Source of the DNA: Gemmata obscuriglobus
GTDB lineage: Bacteria > Planctomycetota > Planctomycetia > Gemmatales > Gemmataceae
Direction of reading: 5' to 3'
DNA length: 32,000 bases
Assembly (NCBI RefSeq): GCF_008065095.1
Contig: NZ_CP042911.1
Span: forward strand, 6,000,001 to 6,032,000
In this document: positions 8,616 through 22,200 of the stretch, piece by piece
Numbering within the stretch: position 1 is the first letter of the stretch
Layout: the number at the start of each line of letters is the position of its first letter
Made by a program: the position numbers and the translations under genes
The notes under the pieces: generated by a model
The model's database searches: none
What the model was told of the DNA's origin: nothing
What the model saw: the letters and a program-made list of their open reading frames with translations, nothing else

Positions 8616-11600
8616 GTGGCGGGGATGCTCATGAGCCCAAAAACGAACTGGGTCACCGTCACGGATTCGCGCTACCAGTGGGAGCGCGACGCCCTCGATT
8701 TCGTCCGCGACCGCTGGCCCGACCACGAGCCGTACCGTGCGTGGTCGAACTTCGAGTTCATTGCGCTCGACGGCAGCATCAACGAGGTTGACCTGCTGCT
8801 GCTCACCCCGATGGGCTTCTTCCTCGTCGAGATCAAAAGCCGGCCGGGGCGGGTGTCCGGCGATGCGGGCACCTGGACGTGGGACACCGAGGGCCGACTC
8901 GTCACCGTCGGGAACCCGCTCCTCGCTGCCAACCTGAAGGCCAAGAAGCTCCGCGCGCTGCTCGAGCGCCAAAAGGCGGTTAAGGTCAAGGGCGGTCTGC
9001 CGTTTGTGGAGCCGCTCGTTTTCCTTTCCGCGCCGGGGCTTCAGTGCGATCTGCGCGACACGGCGGTTTACGGCGTCTGCCTGCGTGACGCGGACGCCGA
9101 GGGCGGCCGGCCGGAGCGGGCCGGAATACTCGCTGCGGTCAAGAGGCGCGAGTGCCCCGGCCTGAAGCCGAAGCACGGCCCGTTCATCGACCGCCCACTC
9201 GCGAAGATCGTCAGTCAGGCCATCCAGCAGGCGGGAATCCCGAACCAGCACCGCCAGCGGCGGGTGAGCGACTACGTGCTCGGTCGACTCCTCGACGAGG
9301 GGCCCGGCTACCAGGACTGGGAGGCGTCCCACGTCCAGAACGTCGGCGGCAAGCGGCGCGTCCGCCTCTACCTCGTGTGGAACGAGGCCACGGCCGACGA
9401 CCGGCAGATGGTCGAGCGGGCCGCCCGGCGGGACTACCAACTGACCGAGGCCCTCCAGCACCCCGGCGTTCTCCGGACCCTCGGCTACACCGAGCACGAG
9501 ATCGGCCCGGCGGTCGTCTTCGAGCACGACCCGAACGCACTCCGGCTCGACCACTATCTCGCTCAGCGGGGCGACCGGCTGGGGGCCGACGTGCGGCTCG
9601 ATCTGCTCCGACAGATCGCGGAGGTCGTCCGGTTCGCCCACGAGAAGAAGGTCGTCCACCGGGGCCTCTGCCCGCGGAGCATCCTCGTCCACGACCCGGA
9701 CGGGCCGCGGCCGCGGGTGAAGGTGCACAACTGGCAGGTCGGCTACCGGGTCGGCGGGTCGTCGTCGGGCGGGACGCGGGACATCACCGCCACCTCACAC
9801 GTTGATCTGCTGGTGGAGGACGCGGGAACGGCGTACATGGCTCCGGAGGCGGTCCTGCCCGCCGACACCGCCGGCGAGCACCTCGACATCTTCTCACTGG
9901 GGGCCGTCGCCTACCACGTCTTCACCGGCACGCCGCCGGCCGGCAACCGGCTGGAGCTGGCCGAGAAGTTACGGCAGACCCGCGGGCTGCTCGTGAGCGA
10001 CGCCCTGAACGGGGCGGCACCCAGCCTCCAGGAGTTGGTGCAGTACAGCACCCACCCGGACGTGACGAGCCGCGTCGACTCGGCCGCCGACTTCCTGGCC
10101 GGGCTCGACCTCGTCGAGGAGGAGTTGACCGCCCCGACGACGGATGCGCTGGTCGACCCGGTGCGGGCTCAGAAGGGGGACGCGCTTCCCGGCGGGTTCA
10201 CCGTCGTCCGCCGGCTCGGCCAGGGGGGCACGTCGGTTGCGCTGCTGGTCGAGCGGGAAGGTGAAGAGTACGTCCTCAAGGTTCCAAACACCGCGGACGA
10301 CGAGCCGCGGTTGCGGGCCGAGGGCGAGGTGCTCGCCAAATTGCGGCACCCCCACGTCATCGAGTACGTTCAGCCACAGAAGCTGTCTGGCCTCCCGTAC
10401 CTGTTGCTGCGGTCGGCCGGGCCGGAGACGCTCGGCCAGCGGCTGCGGAAGGAGGGGCGGCTGCACCTGGACCTGCTCCAGCGGTTCGGGGAGGATCTGC
10501 TGGAGGTGGTGAAGTACCTGGAGGAACAGGGCATACCGCACCGGGACATCAAGCCCGACAACATTGGCGTCGGCCCGGTCGGACGCGGGGACATGCTCCA
10601 CGTTGTCCTGTTCGACTTCTCCCTGTCCCGCACGCCGCCGGAGAACGTTGAGGCCGGCACCAAGGCGTACCTCGACCCGGCCCTCCCGCGGCGCAAGCGG
10701 TGGGACCTGGCCGCCGAGCGGTACGCGGCCGCCGTCACCCTGTTCGAGATGGCCACCGGCACGCTCCCGCGGTGGGGCGACGGCCGGAGCGAGCCGTCGC
10801 AGCTCGACTGCGAGGCGACGGTCGACGAGGAGCTGTTCGACCCGACCCTGCGGGACGCCTTCGTCCTGTTCTTCCGCAAGGCCCTCCGCCGGGAGGCCCG
10901 CGAGCGGCACGACAACGCCGACGAGATGCTCCGGGCGTGGCGAGACTGTTTCGCGGCCATCGGGCCGCCGGACGCCGGGGAACTGAACGAAGAAGAACTC
11001 CGGGCGAGGCTGGAGGGGGCGACGTTCGACTCGTCGGTCCACGAACTGGGGCTGGGGACGCGGGCGACCAACGCTCTGGACCGGGCCAACATGCTGACCG
11101 TCGAGGACATGCTCAGCGTGTCCATGCGGCGGCTGCTGCGGTTGCGCGGCGTCGGCAACAAGACGCGGCGGGAGATCGCGTCCGCCGTCAAGATCCTGCG
11201 GGCCCGACTGGGCACCCCGCAGGCCGACGCGACGGTGGCCGTAGAAGAGCCCGAAGAGCCGCCGACGGGTGCCCCCGGTCGATTGAGCGTCGATCTGCTG
11301 GTTCAGCGGCTCACCCGCTCCAGCCCGCGCGAGGGGGGCACGGCCAAGCAGTCGGTCATCGCCCTGCTCGGACTTGAGGAGTCGCTCCCGAACCCCTGGC
11401 CCAGCCAGGCGGACGTATCACGGTTCATCGGCGTGACGCGGGCCAGGGTCGGGGCGGTCATCAGCAAGGTGATCGACCGCTGGGGCCGTGACAAGGCCCT
11501 GACCGCCCTCCGCGGCGACCTTGCCGGGCTGCTGGTGACGGCCGGTGGGGTGATGACCGCCGGGGAACTCGGCGACGCAATCCTGGCCGCCCGCGGGTCG

Positions 11601-12803
11601 GTGGCGGAGGAGCCCCAGCGGTCGCTGCTCGGCCGGGCCATCGCACGCGCCGCGGTCGAGGTCGAGAGGACGATGTCCGAGCCGCGGTTCCTCGTCCGCC
11701 GCGACGACACGCGGACGCTCGTCGCCCTGCACCCGGCCCTGGCTGACCACGCCGCCCGGCTCGGCGACCGGGCCGACGAACTGGCCCGCGAGGACCCGTT
11801 GGCTTCTCCGACGCGGGCGTTGCAGGTTCTCCGCGAGGTGCCGGCCCCGGCCGGGTTCGAGCCGCTGGCCGACTCCCGGCTCCTGCGGCTGGCCGCCGCG
11901 GCGTCGGTCGAGGCCGCGGTGTCGAGCCGTCAGGAGATCTACCCCCGCGGGATGGACGCCCTCCGGGCTCTGCGGCTGGCGCAGGGAGCCCTCGGCAACG
12001 TGAAGGTGCTCACCGTCGAGCAGGTCCGCGACCGGGTGGCCGGACGCTACCCGGACGCCCAGCCGCTGCCGGAGCGGCCACAGTTGGACGAGTTGCTGGA
12101 GGCGGCCGACGTCGGCTTGCGGTGGAACCCGGACGCCGCCGACGGCCGCGGCGGGTACGTCTCCCGCTTCCAGGAGACGGTGTCGGTTACCACGGCCAGC
12201 ACGCCGCCACAACGGCAACCGACCGCGTCCGGCCACGCGCCTCGCGAGACGTTCTCGCCGGAGGAGGCCGACGCCCGCCTGTTCGAGGAGAAGTTGCGGC
12301 GGTCCCTCAAGGAAGGGGCGTTCCTCACTTTGCTGGTCGCTCAGCGATCGTATCAGCAAGCCCTCGGTGAGCTGCAAAGCGAGCGCTTCTCGCTGAAGAC
12401 CATCGACGCCGACCGGCTGATCATCGACTCCCTCCGCGAGACGGCGGGCAAGGCCCGCGTCGATTGGCCCCTCGTCCTGCGGGCCGACTCCCACACCGGC
12501 AACGGCGACTGGGCGAAGTTGATGATGCTGGTCGGCCGGGCGATGCCGCGGGTCGAGGAACGACTCGCCGGGTCCGACTCCACGATCCTGCTCCTGAACC
12601 CCGGCCTGCTGGCCCGGTACGACAAACTAGACCTGCTCGAAAAGCTCCGGGACCGCGTCGGGCGGCCCGGCGGCCCCGCGGGTCTGTGGCTGCTCTTGCC
12701 GAACCAGCAGCCGATGATCGACGGGAAGGCCGTGCCGCTGCTCAGCCCCGCCCAGCGGGTCCACGTCCCGGAGAGCTGGGTCGAGAACCGTCACCGGGCC
12801 TAG
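8616..12803 (+). CDS. pglW: BREX type 2 serine/threonine kinase PglW (NERD domain + degenerate kinase + active kinase + RpoA alpha-CTD-like HhH + long C-terminal region)
   Basis: 1395-aa ORF; GTG at 8616, with alternative ATGs at 8625 and 8631. NERD-like WERDALDFV...EVDLLLLTPMGFFLVEIKS. First kinase-like domain has VHRGLCPRSILV and YMAPE. Second kinase has GQGGTS, VLKV, HRDIKPDN, DFS. HhH motif is LGLGTRATNALDRANMLTVEDML..LRGVGNKTRREI. Context: directly upstream of pglX/Y/Z. Confidence 0.9.
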   Translation: MAGMLMSPKTNWVTVTDSRYQWERDALDFVRDRWPDHEPYRAWSNFEFIALDGSINEVDLLLLTPMGFFLVEIKSRPGRVSGDAGTWTWDTEGRLVTVGNPLLAANLKAKKLRALLERQKAVKVKGGLPFVEPLVFLSAPGLQCDLRDTAVYGVCLRDADAEGGRPERAGILAAVKRRECPGLKPKHGPFIDRPLAKIVSQAIQQAGIPNQHRQRRVSDYVLGRLLDEGPGYQDWEASHVQNVGGKRRVRLYLVWNEATADDRQMVERAARRDYQLTEALQHPGVLRTLGYTEHEIGPAVVFEHDPNALRLDHYLAQRGDRLGADVRLDLLRQIAEVVRFAHEKKVVHRGLCPRSILVHDPDGPRPRVKVHNWQVGYRVGGSSSGGTRDITATSHVDLLVEDAGTAYMAPEAVLPADTAGEHLDIFSLGAVAYHVFTGTPPAGNRLELAEKLRQTRGLLVSDALNGAAPSLQELVQYSTHPDVTSRVDSAADFLAGLDLVEEELTAPTTDALVDPVRAQKGDALPGGFTVVRRLGQGGTSVALLVEREGEEYVLKVPNTADDEPRLRAEGEVLAKLRHPHVIEYVQPQKLSGLPYLLLRSAGPETLGQRLRKEGRLHLDLLQRFGEDLLEVVKYLEEQGIPHRDIKPDNIGVGPVGRGDMLHVVLFDFSLSRTPPENVEAGTKAYLDPALPRRKRWDLAAERYAAAVTLFEMATGTLPRWGDGRSEPSQLDCEATVDEELFDPTLRDAFVLFFRKALRREARERHDNADEMLRAWRDCFAAIGPPDAGELNEEELRARLEGATFDSSVHELGLGTRATNALDRANMLTVEDMLSVSMRRLLRLRGVGNKTRREIASAVKILRARLGTPQADATVAVEEPEEPPTGAPGRLSVDLLVQRLTRSSPREGGTAKQSVIALLGLEESLPNPWPSQADVSRFIGVTRARVGAVISKVIDRWGRDKALTALRGDLAGLLVTAGGVMTAGELGDAILAARGSVAEEPQRSLLGRAIARAAVEVERTMSEPRFLVRRDDTRTLVALHPALADHAARLGDRADELAREDPLASPTRALQVLREVPAPAGFEPLADSRLLRLAAAASVEAAVSSRQEIYPRGMDALRALRLAQGALGNVKVLTVEQVRDRVAGRYPDAQPLPERPQLDELLEAADVGLRWNPDAADGRGGYVSRFQETVSVTTASTPPQRQPTASGHAPRETFSPEEADARLFEEKLRRSLKEGAFLTLLVAQRSYQQALGELQSERFSLKTIDADRLIIDSLRETAGKARVDWPLVLRADSHTGNGDWAKLMMLVGRAMPRVEERLAGSDSTILLLNPGLLARYDKLDLLEKLRDRVGRPGGPAGLWLLLPNQQPMIDGKAVPLLSPAQRVHVPESWVENRHRA

Positions 12804-12807
12804 GAGG
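12803..12807 (+). promoter_or_regulatory. GGAGG Shine-Dalgarno-like element overlapping the pglW stop; probable original pglX RBS, now displaced by the cassette insertion
   Basis: TAGGAGGAAG at 12801-12810 lies immediately left of the inverted repeat. Joining the sequence outside both repeats gives TAGGAGGAAG+ACCCTTCTCTTATG, which places GGAGG 14 nt (a long spacer) upstream of the pglX ATG. Confidence 0.4.
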
Positions 12808-12810
12808 AAG

Positions 12811-13260
12811 CTCCCGCAAAGTCGCAAAGACGCAGAGAGAAACAGAAATGACCGAGAACGAAATTGCAACAGCTGTCGTCGATGCTGCGTTCCAGATCCA
12901 CACCAAACTCGGCCCGGCCTGCTCGAAAGCGTTTACCAGGCGGTCATGGTTCACGAACTCGCGCGACGCGGCCTGTCGGTCGCACACGAGGTTCCGGTCC
13001 CGGTGATCTGGGAGGGTTTGCGCCTGGAGGCCGGGTTCCGGGCCGACATCATCGTGGACGGTCGGGGCGTCATCGAGTTGAAGTCGGTGGAGGCGGTGGC
13101 CCCGGTCCATCCGAAGCAACTCCGTACCTACCTCCGGCTCACCGGCTGCAAACTTGGGCTTCTGGTCAACTTCAACGTAAACCTGATCAAGGACGGCATC
13201 ACCCGCGTGGTGAACGGTCTCTGATCTTGATTCCTTTGCGTCTTTGCGACTTTGCGGGAG
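12811..13260 (+). mobile_element. 450-bp cassette bounded by perfect 24-bp inverted repeats, carrying a GxxExxY-family gene
   Basis: CTCCCGCAAAGTCGCAAAGACGCA at 12811-12834 is exactly the reverse complement of 13237-13260 (checked base by base). The repeat is built from tandem (N)CGCAAAG octamers. A third, related copy pair lies at 16171-16243. Confidence 0.7.
12848..13224 (+). pseudogene. GxxExxY protein (PD-(D/E)XK nuclease superfamily), disrupted by a 1-nt deletion
   Basis: ATG at 12848 gives MTENEIATAVVDAAFQIHTKLGP, then the frame is lost. Track ORF 12946..13224 continues as MVHELARRGLSV...GFRADIIVDGRGVIELKSVEAVAPVHPKQLRTYLRLTGCKLGLLVNFNVNLIKDGITRVVNGL. Adding one G in GGCCCGG/CCTG (about 12917) restores GPGLLESVYQAVMVHEL, the family signature. 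Confidence 0.8.
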
Positions 13261-13271
13261 ACCCTTCTCTT

Positions 13272-16200
13272 ATGATCGACCGCACCGCGTTCCTGGCCGA
13301 CGCGCAGAAGATCGTCGCCCGGCTGGAGAAGGACCTGCGCGCCCGGTGCGACGACATGCCCGAAGTCGGGCGGGCCGTCGGGTCCGAGTACCGCACCGCG
13401 AAAGACGCCGGCCGCACCGGGCAGACGCTCGAAGAGTGGCGGGCCGACGCCATCACCCAGCAGGCCGTCGCCTGGGTGCTGTCGTGCGTGTTCGTGCGGT
13501 TCCTGGAGGACAACCGGCTCATCGACCCGCCGAAGATCAGCGGGCCGGTCCCGCCGGAGGGCGAGAAGGGTGAGAACCGGCTGGCCCGTGCCCGCGACGA
13601 GCACGAACTGTTCTTCACCGGCGCACGCCGGGGGAGCGAGTTCACCGACCGCGAGTACCTGCTGTCCGTGTTCGACGAGCTGGCGAAGCGGCCGGGCACG
13701 AAGGACCTGTACGGCCCGCACAACCCGATCCGGGCGATCCCGAACTGGCTGTCGCCGGACGCCGCGAAGGACATCCTGCTGCCGTTCTTCCAGAAGATCG
13801 ACGCCGGGTCCGGCCTACTCGTCCACGACTTCACCGACCCGTCATTCGACACCCGCTTCCTCGGCGACCTGTACCAGGACCTCTCGGAGGCGGCCCGCAA
13901 GAAGTACGCCCTGCTCCAGACGCCGGTGTTCGTGGAGGAGTTCATCCTCGACCGCACCCTGCTACCGGCGATCGAGACGTTCGGCCTCGCCACGGTGAAG
14001 ATGATCGACCCGGCCTGCGGCAGTGGCCACTTCCTGCTCGGTGGGTTCAACAAGCTGCTGGAACTGTGGGTGAAAAAGGAGCCGGGCACGCCGCCGCGGG
14101 AGTTGGTGCAGCGAGCACTCGACGCGATCCACGGCGTGGACCTGAACCCCTACGCGGTGGCCATCGCTCGGTTCCGGTTGCTGCTGGCGGCGTGGCAGGC
14201 GGCCGGGGTGACGAGCCTGAAGAACGCCCCGGACTTCAAGCTGAACCTGGCCTGCGGCGACTCGCTGTTGCACGGCGGCCGGTCGGTGCAGAAGACACTC
14301 GACGAGGAGGTATTCGGGCACACTTACCAGCCCGAAGACCCGGTCGAACTGGAGCGATTGCTGCGCCCCGGCACCTACCACGCGGTGGTCGCCAACCCGC
14401 CATACATCACCCCGAAAGATCGCGGGCTTTGCGACCAGTACCGTGATCGGTATTCCGCCTGCCACCGTCAGTATTCGTTATCCGTACCGTTCATGCAGCG
14501 TCTTTTTGAACTAGCATGCGCAAATGGTTTTATTGGCCAGATCACGGCCAATTCATTCATGAAGCGGGAATTTGGCAAGAAGATTGTCGAGGCATTTTTC
14601 CCCCTGATAGACCTGACCCACATCATCGATAGCAGTGGGGCCCACATTCCAGGTCACGGTATTCCGACGGTGATACTTTTCGGTCGTAACCGCCCCCCGG
14701 TTGCCACAACCCTTCGTGCCGTCATGGGGATTCGAGGCGAACCGTGCGTGCCAGCTAACCCAGCGACAGGTCCAGTATGGTCTTCGATTGAGCAGCAGGT
14801 CGATCAGCCAGGGTCTCAGGGGAAGTTCGTTAGCGTTTCTGATGCAGAACGGGCCGTTTTTCTGAAACATCCTTGGAGCATCGGAGGTGGTGGGGTCGCC
14901 GACGCAAAAGAAACCATCGATCAGGTTTCTAACACTTGCCTCGCATCAATAGTTGAATCGCTTGGGAGGACGGTATCGACCCAGGGAGATGACGTCTTCG
15001 TTGTGCCCACGGCGCAAGCACGTCGGAGTGGCATCGTTACGGGCCACTACCGTCCACTTGTGCGTGGCGAAGATGTCAGGGATTGGCAGGCTAAAGCCGA
15101 TCTTGCAGTGTTGTTCCCGTACGACACAAACCTACTTCCGATACCCGATGACTTGTCAGCAACTGTGCTCCGCTACCTGTGGCCTGCTAAAGCAGTGCTG
15201 GCTTCAACTTTGATGTTTGGTGACAAGACGAAGGTGCAAACTGGATTAAGGTGGTTTGAGTATGGCCAGTTCATCGCCGATCGCTTGCGGAATCGTATCG
15301 CCCTTGTTTACAGCGAAGTAGCCACGCACAACCACTTCGCTTTCGACCGCGGGAGCAGAGTCTTCAATCGTACTGCTCCTATCATCCTGCTTTCCAGTTC
15401 TGTCACGGAAGACGGGCATTTCGCCCTTCTTGGTTTGCTGAACAGCTCGGTCGCAGGCTTTTGGCTCCGACAAGTCTGCCACGATAAAGGCAGCAGCGGG
15501 ATCACTGGCGGCATAAAAGTGGAAGCCTGGGATCGTTTCTTTGCATTCAATGGGACAAATACTAATCGATTTCCGCTCCCTGACGCACGCCCACGAGGGC
15601 TTGCATTTCGGCTCGACGCTTTCGCGCGCAACATCGCGGACAATCAGCCTGCCAGTGTCATTGCTAGATGGGTCGATGGTTTATCGCTCTCGTCTTTACT
15701 CGACAGTTCTGAAGCCACGTGCCGCCGTTGCCGAGGGACAATGATACGGCTGCAAGAAGACCTCGACTGGGAGTGCTACCGCCTCTATGGGCTGTCCGCT
15801 GACGGCCTCACCGACTCACAATGGGAGACCCGCGACTTGCCGGTCAAGCTCGGTGAGCGGGCGTTCGAGATCGTCCTCGCCCGCAAGATGCGCGATGAGG
15901 GCTTGGAAACGACGTGGTTCGCCCGGCACGGCTCGACCCCGATCACCGAGCTACCCGCGCACTGGCCGCCGGACTACCGGAAGCTGGTCGAACGCCGCAT
16001 TGAGGCCATCGCGGCCAACCCGCAGATCGCCCTGATCGAGCAGCCGGAGTACAAGCGGCGGTGGAACGACACCCCGTGGGCCGAGAAGGTCACCGCCGCC
16101 CTGCACGACTGGCTCCTCGCCCGGCTGGAGTCGTACTTCGACATTGATGGGAGGATGCGAGAAGATGAGAATCTCCCGCAAAGTCGCAAAGGCGCAAAGA

Positions 16201-17075
16201 CGGAAGGTTCTTCTCTTGGCGACTCTGCGGCTTTGCGGGAGATTCGTCTTTATCCGCTCACTCGAATCGCCGACGTGGCGTCGAAGGACGCCGAGTTCCG
16301 CGAAGTGGGCCGACTCTACCGCGAGGGGCGGATCGACTTCGACGTAACGAAGCTGGTCACCGAACTGGTCGAGGCCGAGAGCGTCCCGCTCCTGCCAGTG
16401 CTGCGGTACAAACCGACGGGGTTGGATAAGCGGCTAGCCTGGGAGCGAACCTGGGATCTGCAACGCCGCGAGGACGCCATCGACGCCCGCGTCGCCGGCA
16501 AGTCGGTCGATGTCGGTGCCGGCGGCTGGACGCACCAGAAAGACGACGGCAAGTCGCCGCTGAACCCGGCGCAGGCGAGCCTGCTCAAGCAGTACGTCGT
16601 CGACCCGAACACCCCGCAGTCGATCCCGGTGCCGCCGAAGTACAAGTCGGCAGACTTCCAGAAGGGCGACTACTGGCGTCTCCGCGGCGGCCTCGACGTG
16701 CCGAAGGAGCGGTGGGTACTATTCCCGCACTGCGGCGGGGCCGACGGGCTGCCACTGGTCGCCTGGGCCGGGTACGATCACCTGCAACTGGCTAAGGCGA
16801 TCGCGACCCACTACGTCCACGTGCAGGAGCAGGAGGGCGGCCGCGACGACCCGCGGCTGGTGCCGCTGCTGGCGGCGATCTGCCAACTGCTCCCGTGGCT
16901 GAAGCAGTGGCACAACGAGATGGACGAGGAGTTCGGCTCCCGGATGGGCGACTACTACGAGGGGTTCGTCTCGGAGGAGGCCCGCGGGATGGGCAAGACG
17001 GTGGACGAGGTCTGCACTTGGCAGCCTCCTGCCGGCGGGAACGGCCGGAGCGGCCGCGGCCGGAGAGCAAAGTAG
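13272..17075 (+). CDS. pglX: BREX adenine-specific DNA methyltransferase PglX
   Basis: The ATG at 13272 (MIDRTAFLADAQK) lies within track ORF 12864..17075. AdoMet motif IDPACGSGHFLL is at about 14004. Catalytic motif VVANPPYITPK has NPPY at 14394-14405. The size (1267 aa) and the position between pglW and pglY fit PglX. Confidence 0.9.
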   Translation: MIDRTAFLADAQKIVARLEKDLRARCDDMPEVGRAVGSEYRTAKDAGRTGQTLEEWRADAITQQAVAWVLSCVFVRFLEDNRLIDPPKISGPVPPEGEKGENRLARARDEHELFFTGARRGSEFTDREYLLSVFDELAKRPGTKDLYGPHNPIRAIPNWLSPDAAKDILLPFFQKIDAGSGLLVHDFTDPSFDTRFLGDLYQDLSEAARKKYALLQTPVFVEEFILDRTLLPAIETFGLATVKMIDPACGSGHFLLGGFNKLLELWVKKEPGTPPRELVQRALDAIHGVDLNPYAVAIARFRLLLAAWQAAGVTSLKNAPDFKLNLACGDSLLHGGRSVQKTLDEEVFGHTYQPEDPVELERLLRPGTYHAVVANPPYITPKDRGLCDQYRDRYSACHRQYSLSVPFMQRLFELACANGFIGQITANSFMKREFGKKIVEAFFPLIDLTHIIDSSGAHIPGHGIPTVILFGRNRPPVATTLRAVMGIRGEPCVPANPATGPVWSSIEQQVDQPGSQGKFVSVSDAERAVFLKHPWSIGGGGVADAKETIDQVSNTCLASIVESLGRTVSTQGDDVFVVPTAQARRSGIVTGHYRPLVRGEDVRDWQAKADLAVLFPYDTNLLPIPDDLSATVLRYLWPAKAVLASTLMFGDKTKVQTGLRWFEYGQFIADRLRNRIALVYSEVATHNHFAFDRGSRVFNRTAPIILLSSSVTEDGHFALLGLLNSSVAGFWLRQVCHDKGSSGITGGIKVEAWDRFFAFNGTNTNRFPLPDARPRGLAFRLDAFARNIADNQPASVIARWVDGLSLSSLLDSSEATCRRCRGTMIRLQEDLDWECYRLYGLSADGLTDSQWETRDLPVKLGERAFEIVLARKMRDEGLETTWFARHGSTPITELPAHWPPDYRKLVERRIEAIAANPQIALIEQPEYKRRWNDTPWAEKVTAALHDWLLARLESYFDIDGRMREDENLPQSRKGAKTEGSSLGDSAALREIRLYPLTRIADVASKDAEFREVGRLYREGRIDFDVTKLVTELVEAESVPLLPVLRYKPTGLDKRLAWERTWDLQRREDAIDARVAGKSVDVGAGGWTHQKDDGKSPLNPAQASLLKQYVVDPNTPQSIPVPPKYKSADFQKGDYWRLRGGLDVPKERWVLFPHCGGADGLPLVAWAGYDHLQLAKAIATHYVHVQEQEGGRDDPRLVPLLAAICQLLPWLKQWHNEMDEEFGSRMGDYYEGFVSEEARGMGKTVDEVCTWQPPAGGNGRSGRGRRAK
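16171..16243 (+). repeat. 73-nt solo inverted-repeat (MITE-like) copy of the cassette terminal repeat, embedded in the pglX reading frame
   Basis: ATCTCCCGCAAAG (16171-16183) pairs perfectly with CTTTGCGGGAGAT (16231-16243), and the stem extends imperfectly beyond that. The left arm CTCCCGCAAAGTCGCAAAGGCGCAAAGA matches the 12811 repeat. It is translated as ..NLPQSRKGAKTEGSSLGDSAALREI.. with no stop. Confidence 0.75.
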
Positions 17076-17101
17076 GCGACCTCCAATCAGACAGGGCGAT
17101 C

Positions 17102-18370
17102 ATGTTCATCACGACGCTGGAGCTGGAGAACGTCCGCACGTTCGCGAAGGCGAACCTGGACTTCGTCCACCCGGACCTGGAGTACGCACCGGCGAAGACG
17201 CCGCTAGACAAGCTGAAAAAGCGACTTCCCCGTCCGCGACTGCCGAACGTGAACCTGCTGCTCGGCGACAACGGTTCGGGCAAGACGACGCTTCTGCGGG
17301 CCATCGCGATGTCCGCCCTCGGCCCGAGCGTGACCAGCCCTTCGGCTGGAATCCGGGACCCGGGGCTGGTTCGGCGGGGCGCGGACCTGCCGAAGAATGC
17401 GAAGGCACGCCTCGTGAGTGCGTTCGGGTTACACCCCCAAGACCGGGCCCCAGAAGGGGCGGTCGCACGGGGGGAACTTGAGGTCGGGAAGCGGGGCGAC
17501 ACCGAGGAGTTCAGGTTCCTCGATCCGGACGAACACGTGTGGGAGCCGGTCTTCGAGGAGAAGAACGACGCGTTCCTCGTGGTCGGTTACGGGGCCACTC
17601 GTCGCGTGGAGCAAGCCGATCGGTTTGACATGGGGTCGCGGACCAAGACCCGGTTCATCCGCGGACAGCGCATCGCCAGCCTCTACGAGGACGGGTTCTC
17701 GCTCATCCCGCTGACCTACTGGTTGCCCGACTTGCAGAAGTCCAACAAAGGGCGATATACCCAGGTCGTCCACCTCCTCAAACGGCTGATCGGACCCGGC
17801 CACTACACGTTCACCGAAGAGCTAGAGCGGGGCGACTACCTCTTCGAGCGAGGCGGTATGAAGATCCCGTTCCGGGCACTTTCCGACGGTTACCGGGCCT
17901 TCATCGGGTGGGTCGGGGACCTGTTATACCACGTGTGCTACGGCGCCCCGTCCGGGAAGAAACTGGACGAGGGGTCGGGGATCGTACTGGTGGACGAGAT
18001 CGACCTGCACCTGCACCCGCGGTGGCAGATGAAGGTCATCCCGACGATCGCGAAGGCACTGCCCCGGATGCAGTTCGTGTTCACGTCGCACAGCCCCCTC
18101 GTGGCCGGCAGCCTCGAATGGATGAACATCATCACGCTGAAGACGAACAACAAGACCAACCGCACCAAAGTTGGACGTCTCCAGAGGAGCATTCACGGGC
18201 TCGACGCGGATCAGATCCTGCTGAGCGACCTTTTTGGGCTGACCAGTACGCGGGCCGAAGCCAAGACGACCCAGCTTCACAAGCTGACGGCTCAAGCCCG
18301 AGAGGGCGATGACGCCGCGGCCCTCCAAATCGTCCGAGAACTCAGTCGTGGGTTGGAGGAGTCGCCTTGA
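17102..18370 (+). CDS. AAA_15/AAA_21-type ABC-like ATPase, Septu PtuA-like
   Basis: ATG at 17102 (MFITTLELENVRTF). Walker A LLGDNGSGKTTLLRAI, signature-like LSDGYRAF, Walker B IVLVDEIDLHLHPRWQ, H-loop FVFTSHSP. Its stop overlaps the start of the downstream HNH gene. Confidence 0.8.
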   Translation: MFITTLELENVRTFAKANLDFVHPDLEYAPAKTPLDKLKKRLPRPRLPNVNLLLGDNGSGKTTLLRAIAMSALGPSVTSPSAGIRDPGLVRRGADLPKNAKARLVSAFGLHPQDRAPEGAVARGELEVGKRGDTEEFRFLDPDEHVWEPVFEEKNDAFLVVGYGATRRVEQADRFDMGSRTKTRFIRGQRIASLYEDGFSLIPLTYWLPDLQKSNKGRYTQVVHLLKRLIGPGHYTFTEELERGDYLFERGGMKIPFRALSDGYRAFIGWVGDLLYHVCYGAPSGKKLDEGSGIVLVDEIDLHLHPRWQMKVIPTIAKALPRMQFVFTSHSPLVAGSLEWMNIITLKTNNKTNRTKVGRLQRSIHGLDADQILLSDLFGLTSTRAEAKTTQLHKLTAQAREGDDAAALQIVRELSRGLEESP

Positions 18371-19254
18371 TCCGCATCGTCGTCACCGAAGCCGCCCTAC
18401 GGGCCAGAATTGAGGAACTCAAGGCCGGCTGGGAGGGGCGGATGAAGGCGCTCGTCACGGCCCTCAGGGGCAACGACGATCCCGAATTCCAGAACGAGTG
18501 GAGCGACATCAAAGAGGCGTACATCGAATTCCAGCACTCGAAGTGCGCGTTCTGCGAAAAGCCCCTGGAGGGCAAGATCGAACAGGACGTGGAGCACTTC
18601 CGGCCAAAGGGGGCCGTGGTCGCTTGGCCGGTGCCCGGTGACTTGGCCGATGAGGTTCGGAAAGCCGGGTTCCGGGTTGTTCAGCCACCCAGAGGGTCGA
18701 AGGGATACAAGTACCTCGCGTACCATCCGCTCAACTACCTGACGGCGTGCAAAACGTGCAACTCGATTAGAAAGAAGAACTACTTCCCGATCGCGGGCCG
18801 CCGTAGGCTCGGCGGACGCGCGATCGCTGACCTCGCGGGCGAGCAAGCCTATTTGATTTACCCACTCTCGGACCTCGACGCGGACCCGGAGCACTTGATC
18901 GAGTTCATCGGCATTACGCCTCGTCCCAAAGCCGGCTTGACGGTCTTTGAACGACTCCGCGCACGCGTGACGATCGAATTCTTCGGCCTGGACAACGTAT
19001 CCGAGCGGAAGGATCTGCTCATCGACCGATTCGAGACGCTAGAAAAAGTCTACCTTGCACTGAAGGGGCGGACGGAATTTGCCACAGCGGCCGACCGCAA
19101 CAGGGCCGACCAGGTGGTGACGGCTTACCAGACCAGCCGGAGGCGGCATACGAACTGTATCAAACATTTCGTTGCCCTGTTTACCCGGCATCCGGAGCAA
19201 GCCGAGCAACTATATCAGGACGCGGTTACCTACCTGAAAACGGTCTCCAGTTGA
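18367..19254 (+). CDS. HNH endonuclease of the TIGR02646 / Septu PtuB-like type
   Basis: TTG start at 18367 overlaps the ATPase stop (TTGA). Motifs: KCAFCEKPLEG..EQDVEHFRPKG ... LNYLTACKTCNSIRKKNYFP (CxxC..H..CxxCN HNH pattern). A downstream TIEFFGLDNVSERKDLLIDR segment is also typical of this family. Confidence 0.75.
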   Translation: MIRIVVTEAALRARIEELKAGWEGRMKALVTALRGNDDPEFQNEWSDIKEAYIEFQHSKCAFCEKPLEGKIEQDVEHFRPKGAVVAWPVPGDLADEVRKAGFRVVQPPRGSKGYKYLAYHPLNYLTACKTCNSIRKKNYFPIAGRRRLGGRAIADLAGEQAYLIYPLSDLDADPEHLIEFIGITPRPKAGLTVFERLRARVTIEFFGLDNVSERKDLLIDRFETLEKVYLALKGRTEFATAADRNRADQVVTAYQTSRRRHTNCIKHFVALFTRHPEQAEQLYQDAVTYLKTVSS

Positions 19255-19276: not shown

Positions 19277-22200
19277 ATGACATTGCTGCGCGAGCTGATC
19301 GACATCCCCGAACACGTCCGCAAGGGCGACTTCGTCCTCCGCCTGTCCGAGGGTGTGGTCGACCCGGCCGGGACGTTGGGGGAGTACGTCGTCACCCCCG
19401 AACTGGTCCGGTGCTTCGACCAGGCCCTCGACTTCATCCGGGCCGCGGTCACCGGCCGGACGAGCAAAGCGACCTACCTGCACGGGTCGTTCGGGTCCGG
19501 CAAGTCGCACTTCATGGCCGTGCTGCACCTGATCCTCCAGGGCAACGCGCAGGCCCGCGGCATCCCCGAACTCGCACCGGTGATCGCCAAGCACAACGAC
19601 TGGCTGGCCGGGAAGAGGTTCCTGCTGGTGCCCTACCACATGATCAGTGGGGCGCACAACAGCATGGAGAGCGGCATCCTCGGCGGGTACGCCGACTTCA
19701 TCCGCCGCACCCGACCGGACGCTCCCGTGCCCGGCGTGTTCCTCGCCAAGGGGCTGTTCGAGGACGCCCAGCGGCAGCGGCGGCGGGACGGCGACGAGAA
19801 GTTCTTCGCCGAGCTGAACGCCGGCCGGGGCAACGAGCAGGCGTCGGGCTGGGGCGACCTCGAAAGCAGTTGGGACGCGGCCCGGTTCGAGGCGGCGATC
19901 GACGCCGACCCCGGTTCCGAGGAGCGGACCCGGCTGGTGAGCGACCTCGTGGGGACGTTCTTCCAGTCCTACGCGTCGGTGGCGCACGGGGGCCGGGAGG
20001 CGTACCTGTCGCTGGACAAGGGGCTGTGCGTGCTCAGCCAGCACGCCCGCGACCTGGGGTTCGACGCCCTCCTGCTGTTCCTCGACGAACTGATCCTGTG
20101 GCTGGCCACGCGGTCGGTGGACCTCGACTTCGTCAAGCGGGAGGCGGCCAAGCTCACCACCCTGGTCGAGGCGCAGACGCCCGACCGGCCGATCCCCGTG
20201 GTCAGCTTCGTCGCCCGCCAGCGGGATCTGCGCAAGCTGATCGGGGACCACGTTGCCGGGGCCGAGCGGCTGAACTTCAGCGACTCGCTCGACTGGCAGG
20301 AGGGGCGGTTCAGCACCATCACGCTGGAGGACCGGAACCTCCCGGCGATCGCCGAGAAGCGCGTCTTGAAGCCTGTCAGCGAGGCCGCGAAGGGCGAGCT
20401 GGACGCCGCCTTCGAGAAGACCGCGAAGGTCCGCGACGTGGTGTGGAACACGCTCCTGGCGAACGAGGGTGACAAGCGGATGTTCCGCCAGGTGTACCCG
20501 TTCAGCCCGGCCCTGGTGCAGACGCTCATCGCCGTGTCGAGCGTCCTCCAGCGGGAGCGCACCGCCCTCAAGGTCATGCGACAGCTCCTGGTCGACCAGC
20601 GAGATTCGCTCCAGGTCGGCGACCTCGTGCCCGTCGGCGACCTGTTCGACACCGTGGCCCACGGGGACGAGGCGTTTTCGGCGGAGATGGCGATCCACTT
20701 CGAGAACGCCAAGCGGCTGTACCACCAGAAGCTGCTCCCGGTGCTGGAGAAGCAGCACGGGCGGGCGGAGGAGCTGGAGCAACTGCCCTGGGAGAACCCG
20801 AAGCGGGTCGCGTTCCGCAACGACGACCGGCTGGTGAAGACGCTCCTGCTGGCCGCACTGGTGCCGGGCGTGGAGACGCTCCGCGGGCTCACCGCCGAGC
20901 GGCTGGCCGCCCTCAACCACGGGACGATCAAGACCCCGATCCCCGGTCGGGAAGCTCAAGAGGTGCTGCGCCGGGTCAAGACGTGGGCCGCGGGCGTCGG
21001 CGAGATCCGCGTCGGCGAGGGCCAGAACCCGACGATCACGGTGCAGCTCACCGGAGTCGATACCGAGGCCATCCTGGCCAAGGCCCGCGGCGAGGACAGT
21101 GCCGGCAACCGCCGCCGCCGCGTCCGCCAGATGCTGTTCGAGCAGCTCGCCATTGAGGACCCGGATAAGTTGTTCTTCACCTACGGGTTCCGGTGGCGGA
21201 ACACCGAACGGGCCTGCGAGCTGATCTTCGCCGACAAGCACGTCCGCGACCTGCCCGACACGTCGCTGGAGTCGGAGGACGGGTGGCGGCTGGTGATCGA
21301 CGTGCCGTTCGGGGAGCCCGGCCACGGCCCCCGCGACGGCATCGGCCGGCTCCAGCAGTTCCGCCACGCCCACCCGAACGGGACGCGCACGCTGGTCTGG
21401 ATACCGAACTACTTCAGCCAGGACGCCCTCCGCGACCTGGGGCTCCTGGTAGTGCTGGAGCACATCCTCGCCGGGGAGCGGTTCTCCGGGTACGCCTCGC
21501 ACCTGAACCCGCAGGACAAGCTGGCCGCCCGCAACCTGCTGGAGAACCAGAGCAGCGAACTGCGGCAGCGGGTGCGGCACCACCTGGAGGCGGCCTACGG
21601 GCTGGACGCCCTGCTGCCGGGCTCGCTGGACGCCACCCAGGAACTGGAGCCGCACGAGCAGTTCCAGTCCCTGAAGAGCGGGTTCGACCCGCAGCCCCCG
21701 GCTGCGGCCACACTCCGGGCGGCGATGGAGCAACTGCTCGACCAGGCGTTGGCCGACGACTACCCGGCGCACCCGCGGTTCGAGGCCGAGGTGCGGGCGG
21801 GGAACCTGCGGAAGGTGTACGACGTGGCCAGTCAGGCCGCCCGACGGGAGGACGGGCGGGTCGAGGTGGAGAAGACGCTCCGGCCGCTCCTGCGTCAGAT
21901 CGCCAACCCGCTCCTGCTGGGCGAGATGGGGCCGGACGCCACCCACTTCGTCCTCGGCCAGCACTGGAAGAACCACTTCACGCGCAAGATCTCGCAGGCC
22001 GGCGGTGCGGCCCTGACGGTGGGCCAGTTGCGGAAGTGGACCGACGACCCGAAGCCGATGGGGCTGCCCAAGGAGGCCGCGAACCTCGTCATCCTCGTGT
22101 TCGCCGAGCAGACGAACCGGACGTTTTTCCTGCACGGCGGTGCCACCGATGCCACCCTCTCCAACCTCTCCGACGCACTGGAGCTGCGGGAGTGGAAGGG

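What the first reader, a model, noticed from the sequence alone, without database searches (positions are those of the whole stretch)
16171..16243. Solo 73-nt hairpin copy of the cassette repeat translated in-frame inside pglX
The same CGCAAAG-octamer repeat occurs as a compact inverted pair within the C-terminal third of pglX. It has a 13-bp perfect stem plus an imperfect extension. The ORF nevertheless stays open, encoding ..DENLPQSRKGAKTEGSSLGDSAALREIRL..

This resembles a MITE-like derivative of the GxxExxY cassette that inserted into a coding sequence and is tolerated as a surface loop. Alternatively it could be a structured RNA element acting within the methyltransferase mRNA. Either would be unusual for the specificity and modification subunit of a defence system.
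Basis: partly seen in the sequence, partly recalled or inferred. Interest (0 to 1): 0.7.

Follow-up and report, generated by a model that had tools for sequence, protein, structure and literature searches.

The report
Repeat hairpin translated inside BREX pglX
A 75-90 base palindromic repeat, an empty copy of the arms that enclose a small nuclease gene next door, sits in frame inside the BREX-2 methyltransferase gene and adds a floppy 17-residue loop; the same thing recurs in pglX genes of several phyla, like the "selfish DNA in coding genes" known from Rickettsia.

Summary
Window 16170-16244 is a strong hairpin, and the extended stem spans 16161-16251. It folds at -53 kcal/mol, z = -7. Its arms are the CTCC-(CGCAAAG-N)x3 arms that flank the GxxExxY gene cassette at 12811-13260.

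It lies in frame in pglX (residues 968-991). Relative to the closest homologues, 108 nt replace 57 nt, a net gain of 17 aa. The site is a linker that is exactly 26 aa in 68 of 109 homologues. AlphaFold2 gives pLDDT below 50 and coil for residues 970-988.

The repeat is not local. 70 of 72 metagenomic GxxExxY genes carry CGCNAAG-octamer arms, and ORF-less hairpins occur in many phyla. In nine BREX-2 loci the in-ORF copies are all in pglX. They occupy about six sites and are almost always in one reading frame.

The spacer bases of the two arms do not covary, and there is no G-U strand bias. This argues for a DNA-level repeat rather than a selected RNA structure.

Best reading: a non-autonomous, RPE/REPIN-like selfish palindrome tolerated in a permissive loop. 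How it moves is unknown. There is no target-site duplication and no transposase, only a Cas4-like nuclease.

The parts
16161..16251 (+). Complete hairpin element, including the purine-rich and pyrimidine-rich outer stem (GAAGATGAGAAT ... ATTCGTCTTT)
   Evidence: MFE structure pairs 16161-16251. With 16-nt flanks the sense strand folds at -53.0 and the antisense strand at -49.9 kcal/mol.
16173..16199 (+). Left arm U: CTCC plus three perfect octamer units (CGCAAAG-T, CGCAAAG-G, CGCAAAG). Translated as L-P-Q-S-R-K-G-A-K.
   Evidence: D4: 91% identical to cassette left arm 12807-12838; frame 0.
16200..16214 (+). Loop or spacer between the arms (ACGGAAGGTTCTTCT). It partly pairs in the fold.
16215..16241 (+). 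Right arm U': three degenerate units (CTTGGCG, CTCTGCG, CTTTGCG) plus GGAG. Translated as ...G-D-S-A-A-L-R-E.
   Evidence: D3: 80% identical to cassette right arm 13234-13268; frame 0.
16158..16265 (+). The 108-nt block (PglX R963-R998) that replaces the canonical 57-nt linker of the closest homologue. Net gain 51 nt, or 17 aa.
   Evidence: DNA alignment A2 of window, L096 and L097; linker length table.
13272..17075 (+). pglX, the BREX-2 adenine methyltransferase, 1267 aa. The hairpin lies in its DUF7008 domain (residues 824-1259).
12811..12837 (+). Left arm of the GxxExxY cassette (CTCC-CGCAAAG-T-CGCAAAG-A-CGCAGAG)
   Evidence: I4: 27 nt, 96% complementary to 13234-13260.
12848..13226 (+). 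GxxExxY / PDDEXK_3 ORF of the cassette. Here it is a pseudogene: one C is missing from the run at 12913-12915.
   Evidence: about 98% identical to L097, whose intact ORF scores 136.6 bits on TIGR04256 and 130.6 bits on PF13366.
13234..13260 (+). Right arm of the cassette (CTTTGCG-T-CTTTGCG-A-CTTTGCG-GGAG), 11 nt upstream of the pglX ATG

Best explanation
The hairpin is an ORF-less ('solo') member of a widespread family of palindromic DNA repeats.

What the family looks like (shown):
- Each arm is a tandem array of CGCNAAG octamers capped by CTC[C/A]...[G/T]GAG.
- The full-length form encloses a GxxExxY (PDDEXK_3) gene, a small nuclease with a Cas4-like fold.

What happened here (shown):
- In this lineage, and in the P0002 lineage, the repeat replaced 33 nt of a poorly constrained 26-residue linker in the DUF7008 domain of PglX.
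- The reading frame stays open. The octamer arms of the CTCC/GGAG form have no stop codon in any of the three sense frames tested.
- The 28 repeat-encoded residues are read through as a disordered surface loop, so PglX probably still works (inferred from the intact ORF).

How it most likely works (inferred):
- It behaves as selfish DNA, like Rickettsia palindromic elements in coding genes, or like REPINs relative to their RAYT gene.
- The source of new copies is probably local: the cassette sitting immediately upstream of pglX.
- Copying most likely goes through break repair, gene conversion or recombination rather than cut-and-paste transposition. The GxxExxY nuclease is the candidate enzyme.
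- These last steps are not demonstrated.
For: (1) Same repeat as the cassette: arms 91% and 80% identical, same orientation.

(2) The hairpin is the derived state.
- 68 of 109 homologues have a 26-aa linker with a conserved pattern.
- The closest homologue, P0001, is 93-100% identical in the flanking blocks and lacks the hairpin.
- DNA homology stops at ...GGGAGGATG and resumes at ATCGCCGAC.

(3) The site is permissive.
- 28 homologues carry 37-70-aa linkers of unrelated content.
- One of these is a second repeat family made of heptamer arrays.
- AF2 gives pLDDT below 50 and coil for PglX 970-988, between helices with pLDDT above 90.

(4) The cassette is a general unit.
- 70 of 72 metagenomic GxxExxY genes (54-72% identity) have CGCNAAG arms within 130 nt.
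- 31 of them have the U-ORF-U' arrangement.
- 48 have an inverted-repeat score of at least 14; among shuffled controls, 1 of the 72 loci reached that score (best of 20 shuffles each).

(5) Solo hairpins are widespread. The exact 19-mer occurs in 95 stretches of GTDB species genomes against about 4 expected by chance, spread over many phyla.

(6) It recurs in PglX.
- There are about six sites.
- One pglX gene (L100) has 5 hairpins.
- Each locus uses the same arm subtype (CTCC or CTCA) in its cassette and its solo copies.

(7) DNA motif rather than RNA pairing. In 39 distinct hairpins the spacer positions pair no more often than expected if independent, and sense-strand G-U pairs equal antisense-strand G-U pairs.

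(8) The GxxExxY model (pLDDT 90.5) matches Cas4 and lambda-exonuclease nucleases.
Against: - No target-site duplication. The event is a replacement, so no simple transposition footprint exists.
- No near-identical cassette copy was found in a second genomic context. The next best relative is 72% identical, so recent mobility is not directly shown.
- The cassette nuclease gene in this window is frameshifted.
- The strong frame bias (right arm 15 of 15, left arm 18 of 21 in one frame) and the restriction of in-ORF copies to pglX within BREX-2 loci go beyond what a purely neutral model of random insertion plus filtering predicts. They hint at selection or targeting.
- Several same-site insertions in different homologues may be inherited or exchanged by recombination rather than independent, so the number of separate events is uncertain.
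- Surface exposure rests on a predicted model only.
Confidence: 0.78

Rival explanations
1. A structured RNA element acting within the pglX mRNA. For example, it could be an RNase III cleavage site or a translational pause that tunes expression of the methyltransferase. The same stem around the cassette would process the operon transcript, as in 23S rRNA intervening sequences.
For: - Very stable fold: -53 kcal/mol, z = -7.
- A stem of about 40 bp is long enough for RNase III (general knowledge).
- Small ORFs enclosed by long stems are the architecture of ORF-bearing 23S rRNA IVSs.
- PF05635 IVS-type genes enclosed by inverted repeat arrays sit in equivalent slots of other BREX-2 loci.
Against: - No Rfam family matches. 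The only hits are generic miRNA-hairpin noise.
- In 39 hairpins the variable positions do not covary. G-U pairs are equally frequent on both strands.
- The antisense strand folds as well as or better than the sense strand in 8 of 11 in-ORF copies.
- Both arm topologies (U..U' and U'..U) exist, which conserves the motif rather than a particular RNA.
- The hairpin is not terminator-like.
Confidence: 0.1
2. An adaptive module for PglX. Under this reading the hairpins are retained or recruited for one of three reasons: they diversify surface loops of the BREX-2 methyltransferase (for example to escape phage anti-BREX inhibitors); they provide homology for recombination or mosaicism between pglX alleles; or they switch the gene off by inversion with the inverted cassette arm or by octamer slippage (8 nt, so a frameshift).
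For: - In nine BREX-2 loci, arms occur at 1.04 per kb in pglX and 0.17 per kb elsewhere. None lies in the pglW, pglY, pglZ or brxD ORFs.
- The reading frame is fixed.
- There are in-frame 42-nt tandem amplifications of the left arm in L182.
- PglX is mosaic: 94-100% identical to P0001 at the ends, 38-47% in residues 501-800, and the hairpin block is closer to P0002.
- A 38-nt inverted repeat, 87% complementary, links cassette arm 13234-13271 with hairpin arm 16162-16199 (I1).
Against: - The enrichment can be explained by proximity to the cassette, which is the source.
- The same arms occur in frame in housekeeping genes elsewhere: MutS2, AsnB, an Acs-like enzyme and an oxidoreductase.
- Most copies in Acidobacteriota are intergenic.
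- Three octamer units make a poor slippage tract.
- No inverted or length-variant allele was observed.
Confidence: 0.12
3. Not an insertion at all: a conserved native PglX segment, or a chance palindrome.
For: - The right end of the hairpin encodes ...LREI(R/S)L, which resembles the canonical linker end ...(K)LDI(A/S)L.
- Similar hairpin peptides sit at the same site in distant homologues P0035, P0104, P0005 and P0118.
Against: - 68 of 109 homologues lack it and share a conserved 26-aa linker.
- The DNA is a copy of the neighbouring cassette arms.
- 0 of 200 shuffles fold as well.
- The arm subtype follows the local cassette, not the PglX phylogeny.
Confidence: 0.02

Closest known systems
[quoted passage not shown] 2000 and 2002, as summarised in PMC10969869)
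   Same: - Palindromic repeat of about 100 bp inserted in frame in unrelated ORFs.
- Read through as an extra peptide.
- One preferred reading frame.
- Placed where the fold tolerates it.
- No transposase of its own.
   Different: - No sequence relation to RPEs was tested or is expected.
- The arms here are tandem octamers.
- The family spans many phyla rather than one genus.
- It has a gene-bearing form (GxxExxY).
- In the loci examined it is concentrated in one defence gene.
REP/REPIN elements and their RAYT gene (own knowledge: Nunvar 2010; Bertels and Rainey 2011)
   Same: - A single small enzyme gene flanked by two inverted copies of the repeat.
- Many ORF-less inverted doublets that fold as long hairpins.
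- The doublets are non-autonomous partners of the gene.
   Different: - The enclosed gene is a PD-(D/E)XK (Cas4-like) nuclease, not a Y1/IS200-type transposase.
- REPs are extragenic and lineage-specific. These copies also sit in ORFs and keep the same heptamer across phyla.
- There is no GTAG-type REP head.
- The arms are not themselves palindromic.
Bacterial MITEs (review PMC10969869)
   Same: Short, with terminal inverted repeats, no transposase, multi-copy, and able to make in-frame fusions.
   Different: - No target-site duplication at this copy.
- No parent IS with a transposase.
- Both convergent and divergent arm topologies occur.
ORF-bearing intervening sequences of 23S rRNA (PF05635 / TIGR02436 proteins)
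   Same: - A small ORF sits in the loop of a long stem formed by flanking inverted repeats. ORF-less short versions also exist.
- PF05635 genes with inverted repeat arrays occupy the same intergenic slots in other BREX-2 loci.
   Different: - This copy is not in rRNA.
- Excision by RNase III is untested here.
- This copy is translated.
[quoted passage not shown]
   Same: Coding sequences with dyad symmetry, spread horizontally among distant microbes.
   Different: PARCELs are 25-residue units in long tandem tracts that make up whole surface proteins. They are not single hairpins inserted in enzymes, and they have no associated nuclease gene.

Membership tests
GxxExxY-cassette hairpin repeat family (defined here) | Arms made of at least 2-3 tandem CGCNAAG octamers capped by CTC[C/A] and [G/T]GAG, in inverted orientation | tested here: met
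   the window hairpin has CTCC plus 3 units, and 3 units plus GGAG.
GxxExxY-cassette hairpin repeat family (defined here) | The same arms enclose a GxxExxY/PDDEXK_3 gene in full-length copies | tested here: met
   Window 12811-13260, L096, L097, L100 and L182; 70 of 72 metagenomic GxxExxY genes have such arms; family assignment TIGR04256 and PF13366.
MITE | Terminal inverted repeats, small size, no transposase gene | tested here: met
   The element is 75-91 nt and holds no ORF of its own.
MITE | Target-site duplication flanking the insertion | tested here: not met
   57 nt of the ancestral linker are replaced by 108 nt, with no direct repeat at the junctions.
MITE | Parent insertion sequence with the same ends that encodes a transposase | tested here: not met
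   The only gene-bearing form encodes a 125-aa PD-(D/E)XK nuclease with a Cas4-like fold. No transposase family hit was found.
RPE-like protein-coding palindromes (functional class) | Palindromic repeat inserted in frame and translated within otherwise conserved proteins, at several unrelated sites or genes | tested here: met
   about 6 sites in PglX; MutS2, AsnB, an Acs-like enzyme, an oxidoreductase. Translation is inferred from intact ORFs only.
RPE-like protein-coding palindromes (functional class) | Insertion lies on the protein surface or in a loop, compatible with the fold | tested here: met
   AF2 model: pLDDT below 50 and coil for residues 970-988, between confident helices. This is a prediction, not a solved structure. 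No PDB homologue of DUF7008 exists.
RPE (Rickettsia family proper) | Sequence homology to RPE-1 to RPE-10 and occurrence in Rickettsia | not tested
   No RPE sequences were on hand. The composition and the octamer structure make homology unlikely.
REPIN-RAYT system | Enzyme gene flanked by inverted copies of the repeat, plus dispersed ORF-less inverted doublets | tested here: met
   31 of 72 are U-ORF-U'; 92 short inverted doublets in the fetched loci.
REPIN-RAYT system | The enzyme is a Y1 (IS200/IS605-like) transposase | tested here: not met
   The enclosed gene is PDDEXK_3 / TIGR04256.
23S rRNA intervening sequence | Located in a 23S rRNA helix and excised by RNase III | tested here: not met
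   No rRNA or any Rfam family in the window; the element lies in a protein ORF. RNase III cleavage is not testable here.
Curated structured RNA family (Rfam) | Match to a covariance model at the gathering score | tested here: not met
   0 hits; only sub-threshold miRNA-hairpin models.

The most novel reading that the evidence does not exclude
GxxExxY (PDDEXK_3) genes and their CGCNAAG-octamer arms form a REPIN/RAYT-like pair of autonomous and non-autonomous elements. The pair would be driven by a minimal Cas4-like nuclease instead of a transposase and would be spread across at least six phyla. Its ORF-less hairpins would behave as mobile coding mini-modules. They would enter pglX preferentially, in one fixed reading frame, and diversify the loops of the BREX-2 methyltransferase or drive its mosaic recombination. 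Small 23S-IVS-type (PF05635) genes with other short-unit arms would do the same.
Probability: 0.2. Interest if true: 0.85.

Novelty: new variant of a known kind. Interest (0 to 1): 0.6.

Why it matters
Three reasons.

1. **In-frame selfish palindromes are not confined to Rickettsia.** They occur in free-living bacteria of many phyla. This one sits inside the specificity and modification subunit of an anti-phage system. Annotators and structure modellers should expect repeat-derived loops there, with peptides such as ..LTQRRKDAKEE....FAPLREI..

2. **It gives the GxxExxY family a testable role.** The search returned at least 7,984 protein clusters, and the function of the family is unknown. The hypothesis is that the protein is the nuclease partner of the hairpin repeat that encloses its own gene.

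3. **It raises a question about defence evolution.** Within BREX-2 loci the in-ORF copies are restricted to pglX and use one reading frame. If this holds genome-wide, it would point to targeted or selected remodelling of a defence protein by mobile DNA.

Tried and rejected
- **Rfam.** The gathering-score scan of the window and the E-value scan of five repeat-rich loci gave no real family.
- **Literature.** Exact repeat strings matched 0 papers. 'GxxExxY' matched 3 papers and PDDEXK_3/PF05635 a handful. None describes the arms.
- **Peptide-profile search of the 5.8-billion-protein set.** The doubled profile returned mostly 30-116-aa 'hypothetical proteins', which are spurious ORFs called over hairpins. 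It could not rank large proteins with single insertions, so it gave no count of host families.
- **Sequence search of the PDB with PglX.** It matched BREX-1 PglX/BrxX only at the methyltransferase motif (residues 240-309). There is nothing for DUF7008, and Foldseek with the DUF7008 model also found nothing. The 'surface loop' claim therefore rests on AF2 confidence alone.
I used homologue P0241 with an alignment instead.
- **Holliday-junction-resolvase idea for GxxExxY.** Foldseek gives Cas4 and lambda-exonuclease, not Hjc/RecU, so this is unsupported.
- **Terminator idea.** The hairpin is not called terminator-like.
- **tRNA or tmRNA nearby as an integration target.** None in the window.
- **Source genome.** It is not among the GTDB species representatives that hold the exact 19-mer, so a genome-wide copy count could not be made.


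Full report
**1. The observation**

Window 16050-16370 was read directly.
- The left arm is CTCC followed by three perfect octamer units: CGCAAAG-T, CGCAAAG-G, CGCAAAG (16173-16199).
- About 15 nt follow, then the right arm: CTTGGCG-A-CTCTGCG-G-CTTTGCG-GGAG (16215-16241).
- The perfect stem is 14 bp (16170-16183 with 16231-16244).
- The repeat finder reports 32-nt arms, 88% complementary, 13 nt apart (I3).
- As RNA, 16160-16255 folds at -53.3 kcal/mol. The mean of 200 dinucleotide shuffles is -28.0 +/- 3.6, giving z = -7.07, and no shuffle folds as well. The stem runs from 16161 to 16251.
- CGCAAAG occurs 12 times in the window against 4.4 expected. Clustered copies are found only here and at 12815-12829 and 13234-13256.

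**2. Context**

The window is a BREX-2 (Pgl) locus.
- pglW is 8616-12803 (NERD, two kinase domains, RNAP alpha-CTD).
- pglX is 13272-17075 (1267 aa; Eco57I/MmeI methylase domains; DUF7008 at residues 824-1259).
- pglY starts at 19277. pglZ, brxD and a helicase follow.

Between pglW and pglX lies a 450-bp cassette.
- Two 27-nt arms, 96% complementary (12811-12837 and 13234-13260, I4), enclose a 125-codon ORF.
- In the closest relatives (L097/L098 and L096) this ORF is intact. It is a GxxExxY/PDDEXK_3 protein (TIGR04256, 136.6 bits; PF13366, 130.6 bits).
- In the window one C is missing from the run at 12913-12915, so the gene is frameshifted.
- The hairpin arms inside pglX are 91% and 80% identical to these cassette arms (D4 and D3).

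**3. Is it an insertion?**

I aligned PglX with 22 homologues and then with 108.
- Between the invariant DGRM and the (L/I)AD motif, 68 of 109 sequences have exactly 26 residues with a conserved pattern (DGRMND.G.PTA..D..L.S.A.LAD).
- The three closest hairpin-less homologues, P0001, P0003 and P0004, belong to this group.
- The window has 43 residues at this position.

At the DNA level the window and L097 are alignable up to ...GGGAGGATG and again from ATCGCCGAC. In between, 57 nt in L097 correspond to 108 nt in the window (16158-16265). There is no direct repeat at the junctions.

So this is a replacement: 28 new residues for 11, a net gain of 17 aa. The 26-aa form is ancestral.

P0002 (L096) shares the hairpin and its flanks. 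PglX itself is mosaic:
- 94-100% identical to P0001 in residues 1-300;
- 93-96% identical in residues 1001-1200;
- 38-47% identical in residues 501-800;
- in the hairpin block (901-1000), closer to P0002 (83%) than to P0001 (62%).

The hairpin allele may therefore have arrived by recombination between pglX alleles.

**4. Is it a loop?**

I ran an AlphaFold2 model of residues 801-1267 with a 109-sequence alignment. Mean pLDDT is 81. The model gives pLDDT below 50 and no secondary structure for fragment residues 170-188, which are PglX 970-988. These residues lie between helices with pLDDT above 90.

No solved structure covers DUF7008, either by sequence or by fold. Surface exposure is therefore predicted, not shown.

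The linker is a hotspot. 28 homologues have 37-70 residues there.
- 9 of them, including the window, carry the CGCNAAG-type peptide.
- Others carry peptides from unrelated short-unit repeats.
- In L184 that insert is a hairpin of heptamer arrays: TGGTCAC... paired with ...AATGACA. The segment containing it folds at -50 kcal/mol.

**5. The repeat family**

*Distribution.* The exact 19-mer CTCCCGCAAAGTCGCAAAG occurs in 95 stretches of the GTDB species genomes. My own estimate of the chance expectation for 596 Gb is about 4. Most hits are in Pyrinomonadaceae and other Acidobacteriota. Others are in Planctomycetota, Verrucomicrobiota, Nostoc, Anaerolineales, Desulfobacterota, Binatia and Fibrobacterota. 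A few isolated hits look like chance.

*Arrangement.* In these loci the arms form short inverted doublets in both topologies. There are 55 of the form U'-loop-U and 37 of the form U-loop-U'.

*Link to GxxExxY genes.*
- Of 72 metagenomic GxxExxY genes (54-72% identical) with usable flanks, 48 have flanking inverted repeats scoring at least 14. Among shuffled controls, 1 of the 72 loci reached that score (best of 20 shuffles each).
- Nearly all of these arms are CGCNAAG octamers.
- 70 of 72 have at least one such arm within 130 nt, and 31 are U-ORF-U'.
- The protein family is very large and well conserved across phyla. At least 7,984 clusters score E <= 1e-10, with 65-82% identity among the top hits.
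- Its model (pLDDT 90.5) resembles Cas4 (4ic1, E = 7e-5; also 4r5q) and lambda-exonuclease-type nucleases.

The 'cassette' is therefore a real, recurrent unit, and the pglX hairpin is its ORF-less form.

**6. Recurrence in pglX**

DNA of eight further BREX-2 loci was fetched.
- Hairpins of the same family lie inside pglX in L096 (2), L099 (3), L100 (5), L181, L182, L183 and L184. They fold at -36 to -69 kcal/mol.
- Together with the protein scan, they define about six sites. These are near residues 232-255, 820-848, 880-910, the DGRM linker, the LQREEDRL site near 1040-1140, and the C-terminal tail.
- Across nine loci (171 kb) there are 36 arms in pglX (1.04 per kb) and 23 outside it (0.17 per kb). 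The outside copies lie almost entirely in the intergenic DNA that touches pglX. None is inside the pglW, pglY, pglZ or brxD ORFs.
- Each locus uses one arm subtype (CTCC/GGAG or CTCA/TGAG) in both its cassette and its solo copies.
- Reading frame, measured from DNA: the left arm is in frame 0 (L-[PT]-Q-[RS]-R-K-x-A-K) in 18 of 21 copies. Two of the three exceptions are C-terminal tails. The right arm is in frame 0 (..F-A-P-L-R-E..) in 15 of 15. Yet all three sense frames are open in the CTCC/GGAG form, and two of three are open in the right arm of the TGAG form.
- Some same-site copies are probably inherited or exchanged rather than independent. The number of separate events is therefore lower than the number of copies.

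In-frame arms also occur in housekeeping genes of Acidobacteriota: MutS2, asparagine synthase, an AMP-binding enzyme and a flavin oxidoreductase.

**7. DNA element or RNA element?**

- In 39 distinct compact hairpins, the heptamer bases are nearly invariant.
- The spacer and fourth positions pair no more often than expected if the arms varied independently. For example, observed against expected pairings are 15 vs 12.6, 17 vs 18.9, 16 vs 12.4 and 20 vs 21.2.
- Only the cap position covaries, and that tracks the two subtypes.
- G-U pairs on the sense strand (about 37) equal those that would form on the antisense strand (about 36).
- The antisense strand folds as well as or better than the sense strand in most in-ORF copies.
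- There is no Rfam match and no terminator-like call.

What is conserved is the sequence motif in each arm, not the pairing of one transcript. This favours a DNA-level repeat, meaning a protein-recognised or recombinogenic palindrome. It does not exclude incidental RNase III cleavage.

**8. Mechanism**

*Shown:*
- The repeat is identical in kind to the cassette arms.
- The hairpin form of the linker is the derived state.
- The site is permissive.
- The family is widespread.
- The family is linked to GxxExxY genes.

*Inferred:*
- The hairpin is a non-autonomous copy generated from a cassette-type element, probably the one next door.
- It likely arose by repair, gene conversion or recombination rather than cut-and-paste. 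The evidence is the absence of a target-site duplication, the replacement of 33 nt, and the mosaic allele.
- The GxxExxY nuclease is the candidate enzyme.
- Selection then keeps only copies that preserve the frame, encode the balanced-charge peptide, and restore the ...(D/E)-I-x-L residues that lead into the next structured element.

*Not explained by this passive model:* the exclusive hit on pglX within the loci, and the near-absolute frame. I list an adaptive or targeted role as the main rival and as the novel case.

**9. Comparison with known systems**

- The closest functional analogue is the Rickettsia palindromic element: an in-frame, translated, loop-compatible palindrome.
- The closest architectural analogue is the REPIN-RAYT pair, an enzyme gene flanked by inverted repeats with ORF-less doublets dispersed in the genome. 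Here the enzyme is a PD-(D/E)XK nuclease and the copies enter ORFs.
- It fails two MITE criteria: no target-site duplication and no parent transposase.
- It is not an rRNA IVS. However, PF05635 IVS-type genes enclosed by inverted arrays of other short units occupy the same intergenic slots in L099, L183 and L184. This suggests a broader class of small genes enclosed by hairpins.
- I found no paper that describes these arms.

**10. Verdict**

It is a new variant of a known kind, the protein-coding selfish palindrome. It has unusually wide distribution, a candidate nuclease partner, and a striking association with pglX. Interest 0.6.

Noticed in passing
window 12848-13226 (C-run 12913-12915): The cassette's GxxExxY ORF is a pseudogene here. 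One C is missing relative to L097, whose cassette is otherwise about 98% identical, so GPGLLESVY reads GPACSKAF... It could also be a sequencing error in a homopolymer.
   Followed up: yes
window ~17100-19254 (ORFs 16895..18370 and 18367..19254): A Septu-like pair is inserted between pglX and pglY: an AAA_21 ATPase (PtuA model, 119 bits, below the cutoff) and a 295-aa protein with a weak PtuB/HNH hit. It is absent from L097, where pglY follows pglX directly, and present in the same slot in L181. This looks like a defence system nested inside the BREX-2 operon.
   Followed up: partly
window 13272-17075 versus P0001-P0004: PglX is a mosaic. It is 94-100% identical to P0001 in residues 1-300 and 93-96% in 1001-1200, but only 38-47% in residues 501-800. 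This looks like exchange of the presumed target-recognition region between alleles.
   Followed up: partly
L099 2556-3008; L183 20690-21049; L184 14215-14607: In other BREX-2 loci, 23S_rRNA_IVP / four-helix-bundle genes (PF05635, TIGR02436) occupy intergenic slots (pglW-pglX, pglZ-brxD, pglY-pglZ). They too are enclosed by inverted arrays of short tandem units (TTCTTGG/ACCAAGA, GGTCAGT/ACTGACA). Solo hairpins of heptamer arrays of the same kind (similar units, not identical to the cassette arms) sit in the pglX DGRM linker of L184.
   Followed up: partly
L182 13119-13338 and 13816-13964: In a Binatia pglX, the left arm plus spacer is tandemly amplified five times with a 42-nt (14-aa) period (EEDRLTQSRQDAKE...) before a single right arm. 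A second such array straddles the stop codon.
   Followed up: no
L181 9333-9998: In the P0005 locus, the pglW-pglX slot holds a 221-aa gene with a weak Y1_Tnp (IS200/RAYT-like) hit instead of GxxExxY. Its flanks share a GC-rich direct repeat (GGCGGGCTGACGCCGCGCCGCTCGCC).
   Followed up: no
L079 1400-2150; L051 ~3880-3930: Pyrinomonadaceae and Chloracidobacterium loci hold other dispersed repeats next to the CGCAAAG hairpins. One is GTCAGAACCGGGAGCGATAGCGACTGG, translated as ..SEPGAVATG.. inside MutS2. There are also long tracts of GTCAGTTGTCGGT-type units.
   Followed up: no
window 2040-6665 (- strand): A 1540-aa ORF upstream of the BREX-2 genes has no Pfam hit at E <= 0.001.
   Followed up: no
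L001-L095 (for example L014 5605-5671, L008 1019-1067): In Acidobacteriota the commonest form has the opposite topology: (CTTTGCG-N)n-GGGAAA-loop-CTCCC-(GCAAAG-N)n. It is mostly intergenic. L055 and L079 show regularly spaced arrays of such units. Why both convergent and divergent arrangements of the same arm exist is unexplained.
   Followed up: partly
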